From: Escherichia phage VEc20
Strand: one strand, 5' to 3'
Sequence record: MN022785.1
DNA: 64,000 nt
Numbering within the stretch: the first letter of the stretch is position 1; each line of letters opens with the position of its first letter. Shown here piece after piece: positions 4,462 to 61,654 of the stretch. The notes under the pieces are model-generated. The model was not told the origin of the DNA. It saw only the letters and a program-made list of their open reading frames with translations, and did not search any database. A program made the position numbers and the translations under genes.

Positions 4462-5142
4462 TTATTTTAATGTTACGAAAGAAGAATTACGTGTTTCACG
4501 AATTAGAACTGATCCGTCACGATTAATGTAGTAAATTAAGCTAAATAAAGTTTGGTGTGCCGACGCATGTTCAAAACTAGTTGGATGAGATTTCCAATCA
4601 GGAGTTTCAGCGATCCATTGATAAATCCACCAAGGAACCGTACAGAATCCTGGATTTTTCCCCAATAATTGAAGATTCGGGCTAAAGTTTTCCGGAAGAG
4701 TAAATACAGACGGCTTTTCAGATTCAATAATCTCAGCTACAGCTTGTTCGAATTTTTCTTCAACAAAAGGAGTATCTTCAATCAAAACATCAGTATTTTC
4801 AGGAATTTTATCCGTTTCTACCACTTCAATTTTAATATCAGATTTAACTGGAGAATCAATCAGAAGTGCTGCTTCTGGATTAACTTCTTCATCGTCATAT
4901 TTTAACCCCTCTGCAGCATCAGCAGCATCAATTAAGTCTTTAATAGATAACCCATCAGTCTCTGGCATAGGTTCACTAGCGAGCTTCTGGAGGGCTTCTT
5001 CAATATCAGCAACGATATTATCAAAAGATTTATTCTTTTTGACCTTTATACCAAACTGTTCAGCATATTCAGCTAATTTAGCTTTAGCTTCTTTATTATC
5101 ATCAAGAGCCTTCAGCTCTGCAATATAATCTTTATCTATCAT
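4462..5142 (-). CDS. inh: prohead protease inhibitor Inh-like protein
   Basis: 226-aa ORF immediately upstream of hoc; position and length match T4 inh. Confidence 0.7.
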   Translation of the reverse strand: MIDKDYIAELKALDDNKEAKAKLAEYAEQFGIKVKKNKSFDNIVADIEEALQKLASEPMPETDGLSIKDLIDAADAAEGLKYDDEEVNPEAALLIDSPVKSDIKIEVVETDKIPENTDVLIEDTPFVEEKFEQAVAEIIESEKPSVFTLPENFSPNLQLLGKNPGFCTVPWWIYQWIAETPDWKSHPTSFEHASAHQTLFSLIYYINRDGSVLIRETRNSSFVTLK

Positions 5143-16165: not shown

Positions 16166-16196
16166 TTTGTGTTCCTCATGTTATGTCAGTAAGACT

Positions 16197-16225
16197 ACTA
16201 TAACACAACACGAGGGACTTGTAAA
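16197..16225 (-). promoter_or_regulatory. early promoter (TTTACA-N17-TATAGT)
   Basis: Minus strand GTTTACA-17 bp-TATAGT; part of a 54-bp element (16173-16226) identical to 30449-30502. Confidence 0.55.
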
Positions 16226-22621: not shown

Positions 22622-22638
22622 AGTATTTTCCTCAGTAA

Positions 22639-22664
22639 GGGGCCGAAGCCCCTCATTTTATTTT
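22639..22664. other. intergenic GC hairpin (GGGGC-CGAA-GCCCC)
   Basis: UUCG-loop hairpin in minus-strand RNA between two early ORFs; the T-run is on the plus side only. Confidence 0.4.
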
Positions 22665-23040
22665 AAATATCAAATTCGTTAAGAACTACATCAAAGATTG
22701 CTTCAAGATGCTCAGGTTTAGCTCTGTTACTCAGAATATGACGAATCCAAGTTTTAACCAGAAGCTTGCGATTAACGCCATTCCAGCAAGGATGAGTCCC
22801 TAAATCGCGTTGACGAAAATCATCATCCAAAGCAATTTTGAAGTTGGAACCTTCCATTGTGATTGAAACCGTGATGCCATTTTCAAATCGCATATAAACG
22901 TAGTTAGGAGTCATATACTGTTCAATTTCGCATACTGATCCATTTTGATGTTTCCAAAGGCAGATGGTATCAATAGAACCTGCAATACCATTAGAAACAT
23001 ATTTACGTTCAAAGTTAATGTAGTTCATTTTATTCTCCAA
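22663..23040 (-). CDS. hypothetical protein
   Basis: 125-aa ORF downstream of the early promoter at 23065-23092. Confidence 0.5.
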   Translation of the reverse strand: MENKMNYINFERKYVSNGIAGSIDTICLWKHQNGSVCEIEQYMTPNYVYMRFENGITVSITMEGSNFKIALDDDFRQRDLGTHPCWNGVNRKLLVKTWIRHILSNRAKPEHLEAIFDVVLNEFDI

Positions 23041-23064
23041 GATGTTTAATTGCGGTACAGGTAT

Positions 23065-23092
23065 ATAATATCATGTCCTGTACCAAAGTAAA
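23065..23092 (-). promoter_or_regulatory. early promoter (TTTACT-N16-TATTAT) inside an inverted repeat
   Basis: An 8-bp inverted repeat GGTACAGG/CCTGTACC (23054-23084) brackets the -10 region. Confidence 0.4.
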
Positions 23093-23095
23093 CAA

Positions 23096-23428
23096 TTATT
23101 TTACTACTTTCCAATGCTGCATGTCAAGTTTACCAACTTTTTTCATCTTCTCAATTAAGCGTTCGGCACGTTGGCGAGCTGTAACATAATACCATTCACC
23201 TAATTCATTTTGTTCAATTTTTCCAACGATTACTGTATTCAATTCATAAATCCAACCAGTAAAGAAATTATGAACTTGAATTGTAAAGGTGAAATCTGTT
23301 CCCATACCTTCTGTTGTTTCTACTTCAATAATATCACCTTCAACTGCCATTAAGAACCACATAGTTTCATCATATTTACCATTGAAGCATTTAGTTTTAA
23401 CTGCAGCGTTCAGATTAATCGTTTTCAT
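23096..23428 (-). CDS. hypothetical protein (30.9-like)
   Basis: 110-aa ORF downstream of the early promoter at 23456-23484. Confidence 0.5.
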   Translation of the reverse strand: MKTINLNAAVKTKCFNGKYDETMWFLMAVEGDIIEVETTEGMGTDFTFTIQVHNFFTGWIYELNTVIVGKIEQNELGEWYYVTARQRAERLIEKMKKVGKLDMQHWKVVK

Positions 23429-23455
23429 TTTATTCTCCTTTGTTTGTGTAAGATA

Positions 23456-23484
23456 ATACTATCACAAAGGAACCATACTGTAAA
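23456..23484 (-). promoter_or_regulatory. early promoter (TTTACA-N17-TAGTAT)
   Basis: Minus strand GTTTACA-17 bp-TAGTAT about 28 nt upstream of the 23428 start. Confidence 0.5.
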
Positions 23485-23504: not shown

Positions 23505-23533
23505 AAAATAAAAAAGGACTCCCGAAGGAGTCC
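23505..23533 (-). terminator. intrinsic terminator (UUCG hairpin plus U-run)
   Basis: GGACTCC-CGAA-GGAGTCC; minus-strand RNA hairpin followed by UUUUUUAUUUU. Confidence 0.6.
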
Positions 23534-23538
23534 TCAAC

Positions 23539-26363: not shown

Positions 26364-26596
26364 AGTACGCCATACACCCTTTGTGCTTCAACTAATCCAT
26401 CAAAATCCAGTTTAAGATGCGATATTTGATCGCCATCACCTGGATTCACAATTACTAATACTGAACGAGGAGTTTCGGTAATAACACGAACCGATGTTTC
26501 AGGAAATCGTTCAGAAACCTTATTTACCAATTCCTGAGCAAATAGTTTAACTTTTTCTTGGAATTCTTTAACAGTAATTGGTTTTTCACTTAGCAT
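26360..26596 (-). CDS. hypothetical protein (cd.2-like)
   Basis: 78-aa ORF. Confidence 0.45.
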   Translation of the reverse strand: MLSEKPITVKEFQEKVKLFAQELVNKVSERFPETSVRVITETPRSVLVIVNPGDGDQISHLKLDFDGLVEAQRVYGVL

Positions 26597-27117
26597 GTTG
26601 ATCCCAGCTCCTTACTTTCAACGTTTTTAACTAATTTGACAGAAACTAATTCAGCATCTTGAGTAATCATTACCGGGCCTTCTTCATACTCTTCAAGATA
26701 TTCTAGAGCTTTCTTTTTAGCTTCTTCCTTCGTATCAGTTTGAGCATAGATATAAAACATACAACCAGTAATACCTACTACTTTCCACTTAATTTCTTTA
26801 TCAGTTTTAATTTCAAATTTACTGACAGAATCATCTTTTTGAACTTCTTCGAAAAAAGAATATTCTAACATATAAGCAATTGAAAATAACGGGCTAACTT
26901 TATAAGATTCGCCCATTACATCAACAGCTTTATACCAACAATCATCAATTTCGCGTTTAATGCTAATAACATTTTTCGCAGGATCTATTTTTACTTTAAA
27001 TGAATTTTCCCCAATAAACTGGGCAATTCGTTTATTAGCCCCGCAAGTTTCATTAAAAATATCTTTATATCCAGCTTTAAAGCGATAAACCTTATCTTCT
27101 TCAAACCATTCGCTCAT
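26590..27117 (-). CDS. hypothetical protein (cd.3-like)
   Basis: 175-aa ORF downstream of the early promoter at 27148-27176. Confidence 0.5.
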   Translation of the reverse strand: MSEWFEEDKVYRFKAGYKDIFNETCGANKRIAQFIGENSFKVKIDPAKNVISIKREIDDCWYKAVDVMGESYKVSPLFSIAYMLEYSFFEEVQKDDSVSKFEIKTDKEIKWKVVGITGCMFYIYAQTDTKEEAKKKALEYLEEYEEGPVMITQDAELVSVKLVKNVESKELGSTC

Positions 27118-27147
27118 TTCAATTTCCTCATTTGTTTTGGTAGAGCT

Positions 27148-27176
27148 ATAATATCACAACTCTACCGTAAAGTAAA
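27148..27176 (-). promoter_or_regulatory. early promoter (TTTACT-N17-TATTAT) inside an inverted repeat
   Basis: GGTAGAG/CTCTACC inverted repeat (27139-27166) brackets the -10. Confidence 0.45.
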
Positions 27177-27179
27177 CTA

Positions 27180-27485
27180 TTAAATTGCTTTGAATTCTGA
27201 TGTCTGTGATTCAAAGCGAATATCGCCTTTGATGACTAGCTCAGCATCAAGACCGAATACAACAATGATATGCGCTGAACCTGGATACAACGTGATGGCA
27301 ACAGAATCCACCTGGTCTGGAAGCAAAGTATTCAATACATGAGTCACTTGAGCGTGGATTCGAAGTTCAGCTGCATTATCAAGCTTTTCAAACATGTTAT
27401 TAGCGATAATTTGGCTAAACACTACTTCTACGATTTTAGAGTAAGTCGGAAACATATTTACCTCACATAATTTTCTTCGAGCCAA
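27180..27485 (-). CDS. hypothetical protein (cd.4-like)
   Basis: 101-aa ORF. Confidence 0.45.
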   Translation of the reverse strand: MARRKLCEVNMFPTYSKIVEVVFSQIIANNMFEKLDNAAELRIHAQVTHVLNTLLPDQVDSVAITLYPGSAHIIVVFGLDAELVIKGDIRFESQTSEFKAI

Positions 27486-30444: not shown

Positions 30445-30472
30445 AAAGTCCTCATGTTATGTCAGTAAGACT

Positions 30473-30501
30473 ACTATAACACAACACGAGGGACTTGTAA
30501 A
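30473..30501 (-). promoter_or_regulatory. early promoter (TTTACA-N17-TATAGT)
   Basis: 54-bp element 30449-30502 identical to 16173-16226, covering -35, -10, leader and RBS. Confidence 0.55.
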
Positions 30502-40119: not shown

Positions 40120-40228
40120 TTTATTCTCCTTAGCAAGCTTTAATCAAAAGATATAAACAGACCAACATAACTGCTGCCATAATATAAGGTGCGAACATTT
40201 TCTTTTCTCCATTAGTTTTGATAGGGTA

Positions 40229-40257
40229 ATAGTATCACACTACTACCCTTCTGTAAA
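40229..40257 (-). promoter_or_regulatory. early promoter (TTTACA-N17-TACTAT)
   Basis: Member of the GATAGGGTAATAGTA...TGTAAAC promoter family. Confidence 0.5.
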
Positions 40258-44824: not shown

Positions 44825-44853
44825 ATTATATACTATCTAAATCTTAAAGTAAA
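44825..44853 (-). promoter_or_regulatory. early promoter (TTTACT-N17-TATAAT) for rnh
   Basis: Minus strand GTTTACT-17 bp-TATAAT about 23 nt upstream of the rnh ATG. Confidence 0.5.
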
Positions 44854-61597: not shown

Positions 61598-61625
61598 TTT
61601 GTGTTCCTCCGTAGTTGATAGGGTA

Positions 61626-61654
61626 ATAGTACCACGGAGGAACAGTCTTGTAAA
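61626..61654 (-). promoter_or_regulatory. early promoter (TTTACA-N17-TACTAT)
   Basis: GATAGGGTAATAGTACCA family member. Confidence 0.5.

What the first reader, a model, noticed from the sequence alone, without database searches (positions are those of the whole stretch)
23054..23093. Early promoters whose -10 element sits inside an inverted repeat
At 23054-23084 (GGTACAGG ... CCTGTACC) and 27139-27166 (GGTAGAG ... CTCTACC), perfect 7-8 bp inverted repeats bracket the -10 hexamer of a TTTACT-N16/17-TATTAT promoter. The same architecture with different stem sequences at two loci suggests a structural role rather than chance.
Basis: seen in the sequence. Interest (0 to 1): 0.35.

Follow-up and report, generated by a model that had tools for sequence, protein, structure and literature searches.

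The report
Hairpins overlapping T4 early promoters
Two early promoters of a T4-like phage each have their -10 box inside a conserved hairpin-forming inverted repeat, which is a real, selected feature but belongs to an already described class of promoter/stem-loop cassettes (PeSLs) in T4-type phages.

Summary
Read on the minus (coding) strand, 23092-23054 is TTTACT-N16-TATTAT with 8-bp arms GGTACAGG/CCTGTACC around the -10. 27176-27139 is TTTACT-N17-TATTAT with 7-bp arms GGTAGAG/CTCTACC. The window is a Tequatrovirus. The sites are the gene 30.7 promoter and the T4 Pe133295 equivalent.

It is not chance. In T4, 12 of 47 early-type promoter matches have a perfect inverted repeat of at least 7 bp bracketing the -10, against 0.7 expected (0/1000 shuffles).
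- Site 1 arms are invariant across three genera while loop and flanks vary.
- Site 2 shows compensatory changes across genera.

Folding favours the sense RNA strand, genome-wide and at site 2. The promoter's own transcript should start inside the 3' arm. The hairpin can therefore form only in read-through RNA from upstream, 3 nt after the upstream stop codon.

Neither hairpin has a U-tract, so neither is a canonical terminator. The likeliest role is boundary element (attenuator or 3'-end stabiliser) of the upstream transcription unit, fused to the restart promoter.

This matches PeSLs (Arbiol 2010; Comeau 2014), including the "stem-loop overlapping -10" subclass. Interest is modest.

The parts
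23087..23092 (-). Site 1: -35 hexamer TTTACT of the gene 30.7 early promoter. It starts 3 nt after the stop codon of gene 30.8 (23096-23098).
   Evidence: A promoter is annotated at the orthologous place in phage Lutter.
23077..23084 (-). Site 1: 5' arm GGTACAGG (sense strand), lying in the -35/-10 spacer.
   Evidence: Invariant in 16 relatives from three genera.
23065..23070 (-). Site 1: -10 hexamer TATTAT, inside the 15-nt loop.
23054..23061 (-). Site 1: 3' arm CCTGTACC, 3 nt after the -10. It covers the expected transcription start.
   Evidence: It partly matches the post -10 family consensus A..CCTATCAA. KP185 keeps it without the 5' arm.
22663..23028 (-). Gene 30.7 (121 aa), the gene driven by the site 1 promoter. 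SD GGAG is at 23038-23035.
   Evidence: Pfam PF06919 Phage_T4_Gp30_7, E = 1.9e-52..
27171..27176 (-). Site 2: -35 hexamer TTTACT. It starts 3 nt after the stop codon of the cd.3 homologue (27180-27182).
   Evidence: T4 note 'early promoter Pe133295'.
27155..27166 (-). Site 2: 5' arm. The first 7 nt, GGTAGAG (27166-27160), are the perfect repeat. As sense RNA the arm extends to 12 nt, GGUAGAGUUGUG, using three G.U pairs.
27148..27153 (-). Site 2: -10 hexamer TATTAT. It is in the 14-nt loop of the DNA repeat. In the extended RNA stem it lies partly in the 3' arm, with a 4-nt loop AUAU at 27154-27151.
27139..27150 (-). Site 2: 3' arm. The perfect part is CTCTACC at 27145-27139. As RNA it extends to UAUAGCUCUACC.
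   Evidence: Compensatory changes in Dhakavirus and S16.
26590..27117 (-). 175-aa ORF driven by the site 2 promoter in this window. T4 lacks it, and there cd.2 follows the promoter directly. SD GAGG is at 27129-27126.
   Evidence: No Pfam match.
23435..23484 (-). Gene 30.8 early promoter, a related 'class B' arrangement. The 5' arm UUCCUUUGU lies in the spacer (23472-23464) and pairs with ACAAAGGAG, which contains the Shine-Dalgarno sequence (23443-23435).
   Evidence: The 5' arm tracks the SD in Dhakavirus and Mosigvirus.
23514..23535 (-). Canonical intrinsic terminator (GAGGACTCC-ttcg-GGAGTCCTT plus a T-run) upstream of the 30.8 promoter. It shows what a true terminator looks like in this genome.
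   Evidence: Orthologous terminators in Mosigvirus, Dhakavirus and KP185.
61602..61654 (-). Another early promoter in the window (T4 ndd.4 region). A 14-bp stem joins the spacer (61644-61631) to the SD region (61615-61602). Sense RNA -22.4 kcal/mol, z -7.1.
40220..40257 (-). Another early promoter whose spacer (40251-40238) pairs with the -10 and the sequence after it (40234-40220). Sense RNA -15.9, z -4.9.
30446..30501 (-). Early promoter (T4 alc region) inside a long hairpin that includes the SD. It is near-identical to the cassette at 16171-16225. Sense RNA -24.4, z -6.2.
16171..16225 (-). Duplicate of the 30501 promoter/hairpin cassette (T4 alt.-3 region). Sense RNA -23.0, z -5.5.

Best explanation
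Each site is a composite cassette. A T4-type early promoter (A/T-rich upstream region, TTTACT, 16-17 nt spacer, TG-extended TATTAT) is superimposed on a hairpin-forming inverted repeat. The 5' arm occupies the otherwise unconstrained -35/-10 spacer. The 3' arm covers the start-site region.

Transcription from the promoter itself should begin about 7 nt after the -10, inside the 3' arm, so the promoter's own mRNA cannot form the hairpin. The hairpin forms only in RNA that reads through from upstream promoters. There it sits right after the stop codon of the upstream gene (30.8 or cd.3).

It therefore marks the 3' boundary of the upstream transcription unit. It probably attenuates read-through and/or blocks 3'-to-5' exonucleases after processing. 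The embedded promoter restarts transcription for the next gene. The overlap of hairpin and promoter is forced by roughly 60-nt intergenic gaps.

This is the PeSL ('promoter-early stem-loop') design described for T4-type phages.

Shown here:
- the repeat exists
- it is enriched at early promoters
- it is conserved and co-varies
- folding is biased to the sense RNA
- there is no U-tract
- it abuts the upstream stop codon

Inferred, not shown:
- the transcription start position
- that the hairpin acts on read-through RNA
- the attenuation or stabilisation role
For: Enrichment: 12 of 47 T4 early promoters, and 4 of 14 in the window, have a perfect IR of at least 7 bp around the -10, against 0.69 and 0.16 expected. 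No shuffle in 1000 reaches either count.

Conservation: site 1 arms are invariant in three genera while 4 of 6 loop positions upstream of the -10 hexamer and both flanks vary.

Covariation:
- Site 2 reads GGTAGAG/CTCTACC in T4 and Mosigvirus, GGTAGGACT/AGTCCTACC in Dhakavirus and JS98, and AGGGTTAT/ATAACCCT in S16.
- On alignment A1, 85.7% of cells pair against 36-55% for slid controls. Three of 9 pairs change on both sides. The covariation score is 0.343 against 0.247 (0 of 500 shuffles).
- Paralogous promoters also compensate. T4 dmd has GACAAGACTA/TAGTCTTGTC and mobD.2 has GACAAGATTA/TAATCTTGTC. T4 motB has GGGACCA/TGGTCCC and Mosigvirus/Dhakavirus have GGGAGCA/TGCTCC.

RNA level, sense strand:
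- For 47 T4 promoters, sense MFE averages -10.8 against -8.3 antisense (Wilcoxon p = 1e-4). Z-scores are -2.4 against -1.35 (p = 3e-5). The window shows the same direction (p = 0.02).
- Site 2 sense RNA is -16.9 (z -4.0), antisense -9.2 (z -1.6), and DNA z is -1.5 to -2.1.
- Three one-sided variants give G.U on the sense strand (L005, JK42, AV110). fPS-90 turns a G.U into A-U.

Position: the -35 lies 0-13 nt after the upstream stop in about half of the class A sites, and 3 nt at both flagged sites. 59% of T4 gene ends followed by an early promoter are strongly structured, against 23% of other gaps and 1% of coding controls.

Hints of an independent or redundant role:
- Phage FelixPlatter lost 5 bp of the spacer, leaving a 12-nt spacer, yet keeps the hairpin.
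- KP185 has a canonical terminator upstream of the 30.7 promoter and lacks the 5' arm.

Literature:
- PeSLs are defined as early promoter plus stem-loop, with subclasses that overlap the -10.
- One stem-loop reduced downstream lacZ as strongly as rrnB T1 (PMC2839356).
- The class was extended to T4 and PST (PMC4122927).
Against: - No U-tract follows either hairpin, so the terminator scan does not call them. The only functional test in the literature used a GC-rich RB49 stem-loop, not these AT-richer ones.
- Site 1 gives no strand preference: antisense RNA -18.3 against sense -16.3, and it is also significant as DNA.
- Independent lineages are few. Site 2 has essentially three stem versions.
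- Two natural variants break a pair (ECO111 C.C; metagenome L119 G.A), and the IME341-type ortholog is degraded.
- The apparent exclusivity with canonical terminators is not significant (1 of 13 against 7 of 30).
- The library holds no T4 3'-end or start-site map, so read-through, start site and effect on RNA are inferred.
- The PST/T4 paper's figure legend places its stem-loops 'just upstream' of the promoter, not around the -10.
Confidence: 0.55

Rival explanations
1. DNA-level element. The inverted repeat acts in the DNA, either as a cruciform or hairpin that tunes promoter opening under supercoiling, or as a preferred recombination or template-switch site. The second option is the PeSL authors' 'modular shuffling' and mini-circle idea.
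For: - Site 1 is perfectly Watson-Crick and equally stable on both strands and as DNA (z -4.8 and -6.0).
- Homology breakpoints coincide with the cassettes. Many phages align to site 1 only from the -35 onward and to site 2 only up to the start codon.
- The window has a 175-aa ORF after site 2 that T4 lacks.
- S16-like genomes carry the site 2-type cassette at 4 loci each.
- The 1985 T4 entry X03007 has the site 2 loop inverted between the arms.
- PeSL recombination products were shown experimentally in RB49 and phi1.
Against: - Loops of 14-15 nt make cruciform extrusion costly.
- Site 2 is not significantly stable as DNA (z -1.5 and -2.1) but is as sense RNA.
- The genome-wide sense-over-antisense bias and G.U-type variants are not expected for a DNA structure.
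- Recombination at repeated promoters needs homology, not an internal inverted repeat, and stems differ between loci.
- No modern genome has a flipped loop.
Confidence: 0.15
2. Translational insulation. In read-through RNA the hairpin lowers translation of the downstream gene, so that gene is expressed only from its own promoter. This would be an early-promoter version of the T4 e/soc/49/I-TevI mechanism.
For: - The arrangement is clearly present at neighbouring promoters, where the spacer pairs with the Shine-Dalgarno sequence: 23484, 61654, 30501 and 16225 in the window.
- In T4, 10 of 35 promoters have at least 8 consecutive spacer-SD pairs, against 0.95 in shuffles.
- The mechanism is established for late promoters (PMC3014915).
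Against: - At the two flagged sites the 3' arm ends 15 nt (site 1) and 9 nt (site 2) upstream of the SD, which stays unpaired in the predicted folds.
- Spacer-SD complementarity is only moderately partner-specific (p about 0.015 against permuted partners).
Confidence: 0.12
3. Operator. The palindrome is the binding site of a dimeric phage or host protein that represses the promoter by covering the -10.
For: - Site 1 arms are sequence-invariant across three genera rather than co-varying.
- The repeat overlaps the -10 and the start site, a classic operator position.
Against: - Arm sequences differ at every promoter. GGTACAGG...CCTGTACC occurs once in T4.
- Site 2 keeps pairing, not sequence, across genera.
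- KP185 keeps only one half-site.
- G.U-dependent extension is meaningless for a duplex-DNA operator.
Confidence: 0.06
4. By-product. The repeats are chance or hitch-hiking consequences of the shared ancestry and base composition of a repeated promoter family.
For: - The 3' arms overlap a semi-conserved post -10 motif (A..CCTATCAA) shared by many early promoters.
- Promoter cassettes are duplicated within genomes.
- The weakest case in the window (44853, 6 bp AGATTT) is not distinguishable from chance (z -0.1).
Against: - Shuffle and decoy controls exclude chance for the class.
- The 5' arms lie in the spacer, which has no promoter consensus, yet they complement the local 3' arm at each locus.
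- Double compensatory changes occur between orthologs and between paralogs.
Confidence: 0.07

Closest known systems
PeSLs (promoter-early stem-loops) of T4-type phages: Arbiol et al. 2010, Genome Biol Evol (PMC2839356); Comeau, Arbiol and Krisch 2014 (PMC4122927). T-even IP-locus elements of Repoila et al. 1994 are cited there as analogues.
   Same: - Intergenic cassette bounded by the upstream stop codon and the downstream SD/ATG.
- A/T-rich region, then a sigma70-type early promoter, then a stem-loop.
- Five positional subclasses, including stem-loops 'overlapping the -10 box'.
- PST/T4 promoter consensus TTTACW-N17-TAYWAT, which both sites fit.
- Repeated many times per genome.
- Association with indels and gene replacement, seen here at site 2.
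   Different: - RB49/phi1 stems are polyG/polyC and their promoters near-consensus TTGACA/TATAAT. The stems here are mixed or AT-richer.
- The PST/T4 figure legend places the stems just upstream of the promoter and gives an AGNA/TCNT consensus. Here the arms bracket the -10.
- I could not confirm that these two loci are in the published PST list, because figures and supplements are not held.
- Terminator activity was shown for one RB49 stem-loop only.
RBS-sequestering hairpins with an internal promoter in T4 genes e, soc, 49 and I-TevI (reviewed by Uzan and Miller 2010, PMC3014915)
   Same: - A promoter lies within the DNA that encodes the 5' strand or loop of an RNA hairpin.
- Transcripts from upstream fold, while transcripts from the internal promoter lack the 5' strand.
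   Different: - Those promoters are late (TATAAATA), and the helix contains the SD or AUG.
- At the two flagged sites the promoter is early and the SD is outside the helix.
- Neighbouring promoters (23484, 61654, 30501, 16225) do match the SD-sequestering part.
Intrinsic (Rho-independent) terminators
   Same: - A stable RNA hairpin placed just after a stop codon.
- PeSL stem-loops are called terminators or attenuators by their discoverers.
   Different: - No U-tract follows either hairpin, and the loop is 14-15 nt in the perfect-repeat form. The scan does not call them.
- True terminators in this region are GC-rich UUCG-tetraloop hairpins with T-runs, for example 23535-23514.
Intercistronic mRNA-stabilising hairpins such as E. 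coli REP sequences (from my own knowledge: Newbury et al. 1987)
   Same: A hairpin without a U-tract sits between cistrons and could block 3' exonucleases, protecting the upstream cistron.
   Different: - There is no sequence relationship.
- Function is untested here.
- REPs are not fused to promoters.

Membership tests
PeSL (promoter-early stem-loop cassette) | Sigma70-type early promoter: -35, about 17 nt, -10. For PST/T4 the consensus is TTTACW-N17-TAYWAT. | tested here: met
   Site 1 is TTTACT-N16-TATTAT and site 2 is TTTACT-N17-TATTAT, both with TG upstream of the -10. Site 2 equals T4 Pe133295. Promoter annotations exist in Lutter and fPS-90.
PeSL (promoter-early stem-loop cassette) | Sequence able to form a stable stem-loop adjacent to or overlapping the promoter. 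| tested here: met
   Sense RNA folds: -16.3 kcal/mol (z -4.5) at site 1 and -16.9 (z -4.0) at site 2. The arms bracket the -10.
PeSL (promoter-early stem-loop cassette) | Intergenic position with an A/T-rich stretch after the upstream stop codon and an SD plus start codon at the 3' end. | tested here: met
   The -35 starts 3 nt after the upstream stop at both sites. Upstream sequences are AAAATAATTG and AATTTAATAG. GGAG or GAGG plus ATG lies downstream.
PeSL (promoter-early stem-loop cassette) | Repeated element, many copies per genome, preferentially among small early genes of unknown function. | tested here: met
   7 of 14 early-type promoters in the window and 23 of 47 in T4 have strongly structured sense RNA. 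The neighbouring genes are 30.x and cd.x small ORFs.
PeSL (promoter-early stem-loop cassette) | Association with insertions, deletions or replacements between close relatives. | tested here: met
   - The gene downstream of site 2 differs between T4 (cd.2) and this window (175-aa ORF), with homology ending at the start codon.
- Site 1 homology starts at the -35 in many phages.
- The cassette sits at other loci in S16-like phages.
PeSL (promoter-early stem-loop cassette) | The stem-loop terminates or attenuates upstream transcription. | not testable with these tools
   Shown only for PeSL211/210 of RB49 in a lacZ assay. No T4 3'-end data were found.
Intrinsic terminator | G+C-rich stem, short loop (3-8 nt) and a U-run immediately downstream. 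| tested here: not met
   Neither site is called by the scan. The sequences after the stems are GCAATTAAAC and AAAACAAATG.
RBS-sequestering hairpin with internal promoter (T4 e/soc/49/I-TevI type) | The Shine-Dalgarno sequence and/or start codon is paired within the helix. | tested here: not met
   The SD lies 15 nt (site 1) and 9 nt (site 2) beyond the 3' arm and is unpaired in the MFE and centroid folds. The feature is met at 23484, 61654, 30501 and 16225.
RBS-sequestering hairpin with internal promoter (T4 e/soc/49/I-TevI type) | The internal promoter starts transcripts that lack the 5' strand of the helix. | tested here: inconclusive
   The geometry fits, because the 5' arm lies upstream of the -10. 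The start site is inferred from the sigma70 rule (about 7 nt after the -10) and was not mapped.
Operator palindrome of a repressor | The same half-site sequence recurs at co-regulated promoters, and sequence rather than pairing is conserved. | tested here: not met
   The arm sequence is unique in T4 and in the window. Site 2 conserves pairing through sequence change.

The most novel reading that the evidence does not exclude
Roughly half of T4-type early promoters are embedded in sense-strand RNA hairpins that only read-through transcripts can form. On this reading the phage uses a genome-wide 'transcript-origin filter'. RNA started at a gene's own promoter is open. RNA arriving from upstream is folded there, either hiding the Shine-Dalgarno sequence (class B) or forming a 3' boundary hairpin (class A, the two flagged sites). 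This would extend the mechanism known for four late-expressed genes (e, soc, 49, I-TevI) to the early programme. It would also give PeSL stem-loops a defined RNA-level function beyond 'terminator'.
Probability: 0.3. Interest if true: 0.55.

Novelty: new member of a known kind. Interest (0 to 1): 0.3.

Why it matters
If the hairpins work as proposed, they explain how T4-type phages pack dozens of small early genes as semi-independent expression units into roughly 60-nt gaps. One sequence would serve as the end signal for the upstream unit and the start signal for the next.

The same cassettes are thought to be the joints at which accessory genes are swapped between phages. Their anatomy therefore matters for phage genome evolution and for engineering T4-like therapeutic phages, for example when choosing insertion points that carry their own promoter and insulator.

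The architecture is already in the literature. The value of this finding lies mainly in confirmation, and in the added evidence that selection acts on the sense RNA.

Tried and rejected
- Canonical terminator reading: rejected, because there is no U-tract and the scan does not call the sites.
- Shared operator motif: rejected, because the arm sequences are unique.
- Natural invertible -10 switch: I followed the T4 RefSeq note and found the flipped loop only in the 1985 entry X03007. It is absent from IMG/VR and from the modern genomes I inspected, so it is probably a cloning or sequencing artefact.
- Mutual exclusivity of class A hairpins and canonical upstream terminators: the direction is as expected but it is not significant.
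- Outer stem at site 1 pairing the -35 (UGUUUA) with UAAACA downstream: predicted, and similar A/U-rich complements exist in relatives. The sequence is low-complexity and I did not consider it demonstrable.
- The search for related loci with gp30.7: gave only 14 close relatives.
- Metagenome scan with the stem-agnostic pattern: mostly chance matches.
- Literature: Miller et al. 2003 (PMC150520) is not held. The PeSL 2014 supplements are not held. No T4 TSS or 3'-end map was found.
- The 6-bp repeat at 44853 (AGATTT/AAATCT) is indistinguishable from chance.
Full report
**What the window is**

A 6-kb stretch around the finding is 99% identical to Escherichia phages slur03 and slur14, and about 98% identical to T4-like phages of the genus Tequatrovirus. 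Genes in this region run on the minus strand.

Site 1 lies between T4 genes 30.8 and 30.7. The downstream gene matches Pfam Phage_T4_Gp30_7 with E = 1.9e-52.

Site 2 lies just downstream of the cd.3 homologue. It corresponds to the promoter that the T4 RefSeq record calls 'early promoter Pe133295'.

**Observation**

Read on the minus strand, site 1 is TTTACT(23092-23087)-TT-GGTACAGG(23084-23077)-ACATGA-TATTAT(23070-23065)-ATA-CCTGTACC(23061-23054).

Site 2 is TTTACT(27176-27171)-TTAC-GGTAGAG(27166-27160)-TTGTGA-TATTAT(27153-27148)-AG-CTCTACC(27145-27139).

Both promoters have a TG-extended -10. In both, the -35 starts 3 nt after the stop codon of the upstream gene.

**Is it more than chance?**

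I scanned for TTTAC[AT]-N16-18-TANNNT on the early strand. For each match I measured the longest perfect inverted repeat with one arm in the 14 nt before the -10 and the other in the 24 nt after it.

- In the window, 14 matches gave 5, 4 and 3 sites at thresholds of at least 6, 7 and 8 bp. Shuffling the flanks gave 0.70, 0.16 and 0.03, and no shuffle in 1000 reached the observed counts.
- In the whole T4 genome (fetched), 47 matches gave 17, 12 and 8 sites against 2.8, 0.69 and 0.16, again 0 of 1000.
- Only 2.3% of non-promoter TANNNT hexamers reach 7 bp (binomial p = 7e-10).

T4 examples include 13 bp upstream of ipII, 11 bp at mobD.2, 10 bp at dmd and ipI, 8 bp at ipIII, and 7 bp at motB.

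Two arrangements are seen. In class A, a tight hairpin holds the -10 in or next to the loop, and the 3' arm ends near the start site. Both flagged sites are class A. In class B, the spacer pairs with the Shine-Dalgarno region of the downstream gene. Class B examples in the window are at 23484, 61654, 30501 and 16225.

**Conservation and covariation**

At site 1, the arms are identical in 14 IMG/VR relatives and in Mosigvirus and Dhakavirus genomes. Meanwhile 4 of the 6 loop positions before the -10, the 15-25 nt after the 3' arm, and the upstream flank all diverge.

One relative (L005) has a C-to-T change that gives G.U on the sense strand. In Klebsiella phage KP185 the 3' arm survives but the 5' arm does not, and a canonical terminator sits just upstream of that promoter.

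The 3' arm overlaps a semi-conserved motif after the -10 in this promoter family (A..CCTATCAA). That explains why it can persist alone. The spacer, which has no promoter consensus, is what has been kept complementary to it.

At site 2, true orthologs show different stems:
- T4, the window and Mosigvirus: GGTAGAG/CTCTACC.
- Dhakavirus and JS98: GGTAGGACT/AGTCCTACC.
- Salmonella phage S16 (Gelderlandvirus): AGGGTTAT/ATAACCCT, in a different genomic context.

On a 14-sequence alignment (A1), the proposed 9-pair helix gives these results:
- 85.7% of cells pair, against 36-55% when partners are slid by 1-3 columns.
- Three pairs change on both sides.
- The covariation score is 0.343 against 0.247 in shuffles (0 of 500).

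The number of independent lineages is small, about three stem versions. There are also counter-examples. ECO111 loses the outer pair. A metagenome variant (L119) has an internal G.A. The IME341-type ortholog is degraded.

Compensatory differences also separate related promoters at different loci:
- dmd against mobD.2 in T4: C-G becomes T-A.
- T4 motB against a Mosigvirus/Dhakavirus promoter: GGGACCA/TGGTCCC against GGGAGCA/TGCTCC.

**DNA or RNA, and which strand?**

For the 47 T4 promoter regions, the sense RNA folds better than the antisense RNA:
- Mean MFE is -10.8 against -8.3 kcal/mol (Wilcoxon p = 1e-4).
- Shuffle-normalised z is -2.4 against -1.35 (p = 3e-5).
- 23 of 47 have sense z below -2.

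The window alone gives the same direction (p = 0.02).

Site 2 is the clearest case. As sense RNA the stem extends to 12 bp with three G.U pairs and a 4-nt loop, at -16.9 kcal/mol (z -4.0; 0 of 200 shuffles). The antisense RNA is -9.2 (z -1.6). DNA folds are not significant (z -1.5 and -2.1).

Variants in JK42 and AV110 are G.U-compatible on the sense strand only. fPS-90 converts one G.U of the extension to A-U.

Site 1 is symmetric: sense -16.3, antisense -18.3, DNA z -4.8 and -6.0. It does not discriminate between strands or molecule types.

**Where the hairpin can exist**

A sigma70 holoenzyme normally starts about 7 nt after the -10. This is established knowledge and was not mapped here. 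That position falls inside the 3' arm at both sites, so the promoter's own transcript lacks the 5' arm.

The hairpin can therefore form only in RNA initiated upstream. For site 1 that means the 30.8 promoter at 23484. For site 2 it means promoters upstream of pseT and the cd.x genes. In such RNA the hairpin is the first structure after the upstream stop codon.

T4 gene ends followed by an early promoter are strongly structured in 59% of cases (10 of 17, z below -2.5). The figure is 23% for other gaps of at least 16 nt, 3.8% for abutting genes, and 1% for coding controls.

Neither hairpin is followed by a U-run, and the scan does not call them terminators. A textbook terminator is found at 23535-23514.

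Class A hairpins rarely coexist with a canonical terminator in the preceding 110 nt (1 of 13 against 7 of 30). This difference is not significant.

Phage FelixPlatter has lost 5 bp of the spacer, leaving a 12-nt spacer, but keeps the hairpin. This hints that the hairpin has a value independent of the promoter.

**Most likely mechanism**

The cassette combines a boundary hairpin for the upstream transcription unit with the promoter of the next unit. The two are overlapped because the gap is only about 60 nt.

The hairpin probably attenuates read-through and/or acts as a 3' exonuclease barrier. RegB cleaves early mRNAs at intergenic GGAG (PMC3014915), and the SD GGAG lies 15 nt after the site 1 hairpin. 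The specific downstream effect is inferred, not shown.

**Comparison with what is known**

Arbiol et al. 2010 described PeSLs in phages RB49 and phi1. These are an early promoter plus a stem-loop in intergenic cassettes with five positional subclasses. [quoted passage not shown] One stem-loop cut lacZ expression as strongly as rrnB T1.

The authors note analogous, weaker, AT-richer elements based on T4 early promoters at the T-even IP loci. Those loci are where I find the longest stems in T4 (ipI, ipII, ipIII).

Comeau et al. 2014 extended PeSLs to PST and T4 with the consensus TTTACW-N17-TAYWAT. Their figure legend places the stems just upstream of the promoter.

The two sites meet every sequence-level PeSL criterion, including association with gene replacement:
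- The gene after site 2 differs between T4 and this window, with homology ending at the start codon.
- Many phages share site 1 only from the -35 onward.

They are not intrinsic terminators, because there is no U-run. They are not RBS-sequestering hairpins of the e/soc/49/I-TevI type, because the SD is not paired, although neighbouring promoters are of that type. They are not operators, because the arms are unique and pairing rather than sequence is conserved at site 2.

**Novelty and verdict**

The architecture belongs to a published class, so I file it as a new member of a known kind.

What may be new is analytical:
- Selection appears to act on the sense RNA.
- About half of T4 early promoters are embedded in such structures.
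- In 10 of 35 T4 cases the spacer pairs with the SD over at least 8 consecutive pairs. Shuffles give 0.95. The result is only moderately partner-specific (p about 0.015).

These points would need transcript-end mapping and compensatory mutagenesis to become a finding. Interest: 0.3.

Noticed in passing
window 27146-27159 (loop of site 2); T4 NC_000866 133300-133313; X03007.1 2305-2332 (L055 61-88): The T4 RefSeq record notes that this 14-bp loop is the 'inverted complement of previously reported sequence'. The 1985 pseT entry X03007.1 does carry the loop flipped between the same 7-bp arms. The flipped form would give TATAAT with a dead 12-nt spacer. No modern genome I inspected and no IMG/VR contig has the flipped form. 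It is probably a cloning or sequencing artefact promoted by the inverted repeat, possibly selected because strong early promoters are toxic in plasmids.
   Followed up: yes
window 23435-23484, 61602-61654, 30446-30501, 16171-16225 (minus strand): At these early promoters the -35/-10 spacer is complementary to the Shine-Dalgarno region of the downstream gene. Sense RNA energies run from -12 to -24 kcal/mol and z from -2.7 to -7.1. Only read-through RNA would hide the ribosome-binding site. In T4, 10 of 35 promoters have at least 8 consecutive spacer-SD pairs, against 0.95 in shuffles. The T4 review I read describes this logic only for late promoters.
   Followed up: partly
window 26590-27117 (minus strand): This 175-aa ORF with no Pfam match sits between the site 2 promoter and cd.2. 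T4 lacks it. In many relatives, homology to the window ends at the start codon. The promoter/SD cassette is thus shared while the gene it drives is swapped.
   Followed up: partly
L053 (Escherichia phage FelixPlatter, MZ501065.1 38025-38404), ortholog of site 2: A 5-bp deletion of one TTTAC repeat shortens the -35/-10 spacer to 12 nt. The hairpin GGTAGAG...CTCTACC remains intact, even extended by a T.G pair. This suggests the hairpin is kept independently of the promoter.
   Followed up: no
window 23098-23127 (minus strand), inside the 3' end of gene 30.8: A near-consensus sigma70 promoter match, TTGACA-N18-TAAAAT (11 of 12), lies 35 nt upstream of site 1. A transcript from it would start just before the site 1 hairpin and carry it near its 5' end. 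It is conserved in T4 but absent in Mosigvirus, and it may simply reflect the coding sequence.
   Followed up: no
window 16174-16225 and 30450-30501 (minus strand): The two promoter/hairpin cassettes 14 kb apart are identical over 52 nt (TTTACAAGTCCCTCGTGTTGTGTTATAGTAGTCTTACTGACATAACATGAGGA). T4 has the same pair at 123092 and 136335. This looks like a duplicated regulatory cassette.
   Followed up: no
L023, L026-L032, L038, L039, L047 (Salmonella phage S16 and S16-like IMG/VR genomes): The site 2-type cassette (same SD region AAACAAATGAGGAAA) occurs at about four different loci per genome. Stems differ between copies or are absent. In S16 the copy detected by homology precedes a trna.4-like gene, not cd.2.
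   Followed up: partly
L024 ~4760-4800 (Klebsiella phage KP185, Jiaodavirus): A canonical terminator (AGGGACTCC-ttcg-GGAGTCCCTTTTTT) sits immediately upstream of the 30.7 promoter. The promoter keeps the 3' arm CCTGTACC but has lost the complementary 5' arm. This is a single case suggesting that terminator and promoter-embedded hairpin may be interchangeable.
   Followed up: partly
window 22638-22653: A GC-rich tetraloop hairpin (AGGGGCCGAAGCCCCT on the + strand) lies in the 41-nt gap between genes 30.7 and 30.6. The scan calls it terminator-like on the + strand. The 30.8, 30.7 and 30.6 genes are each separated by a hairpin.
   Followed up: no
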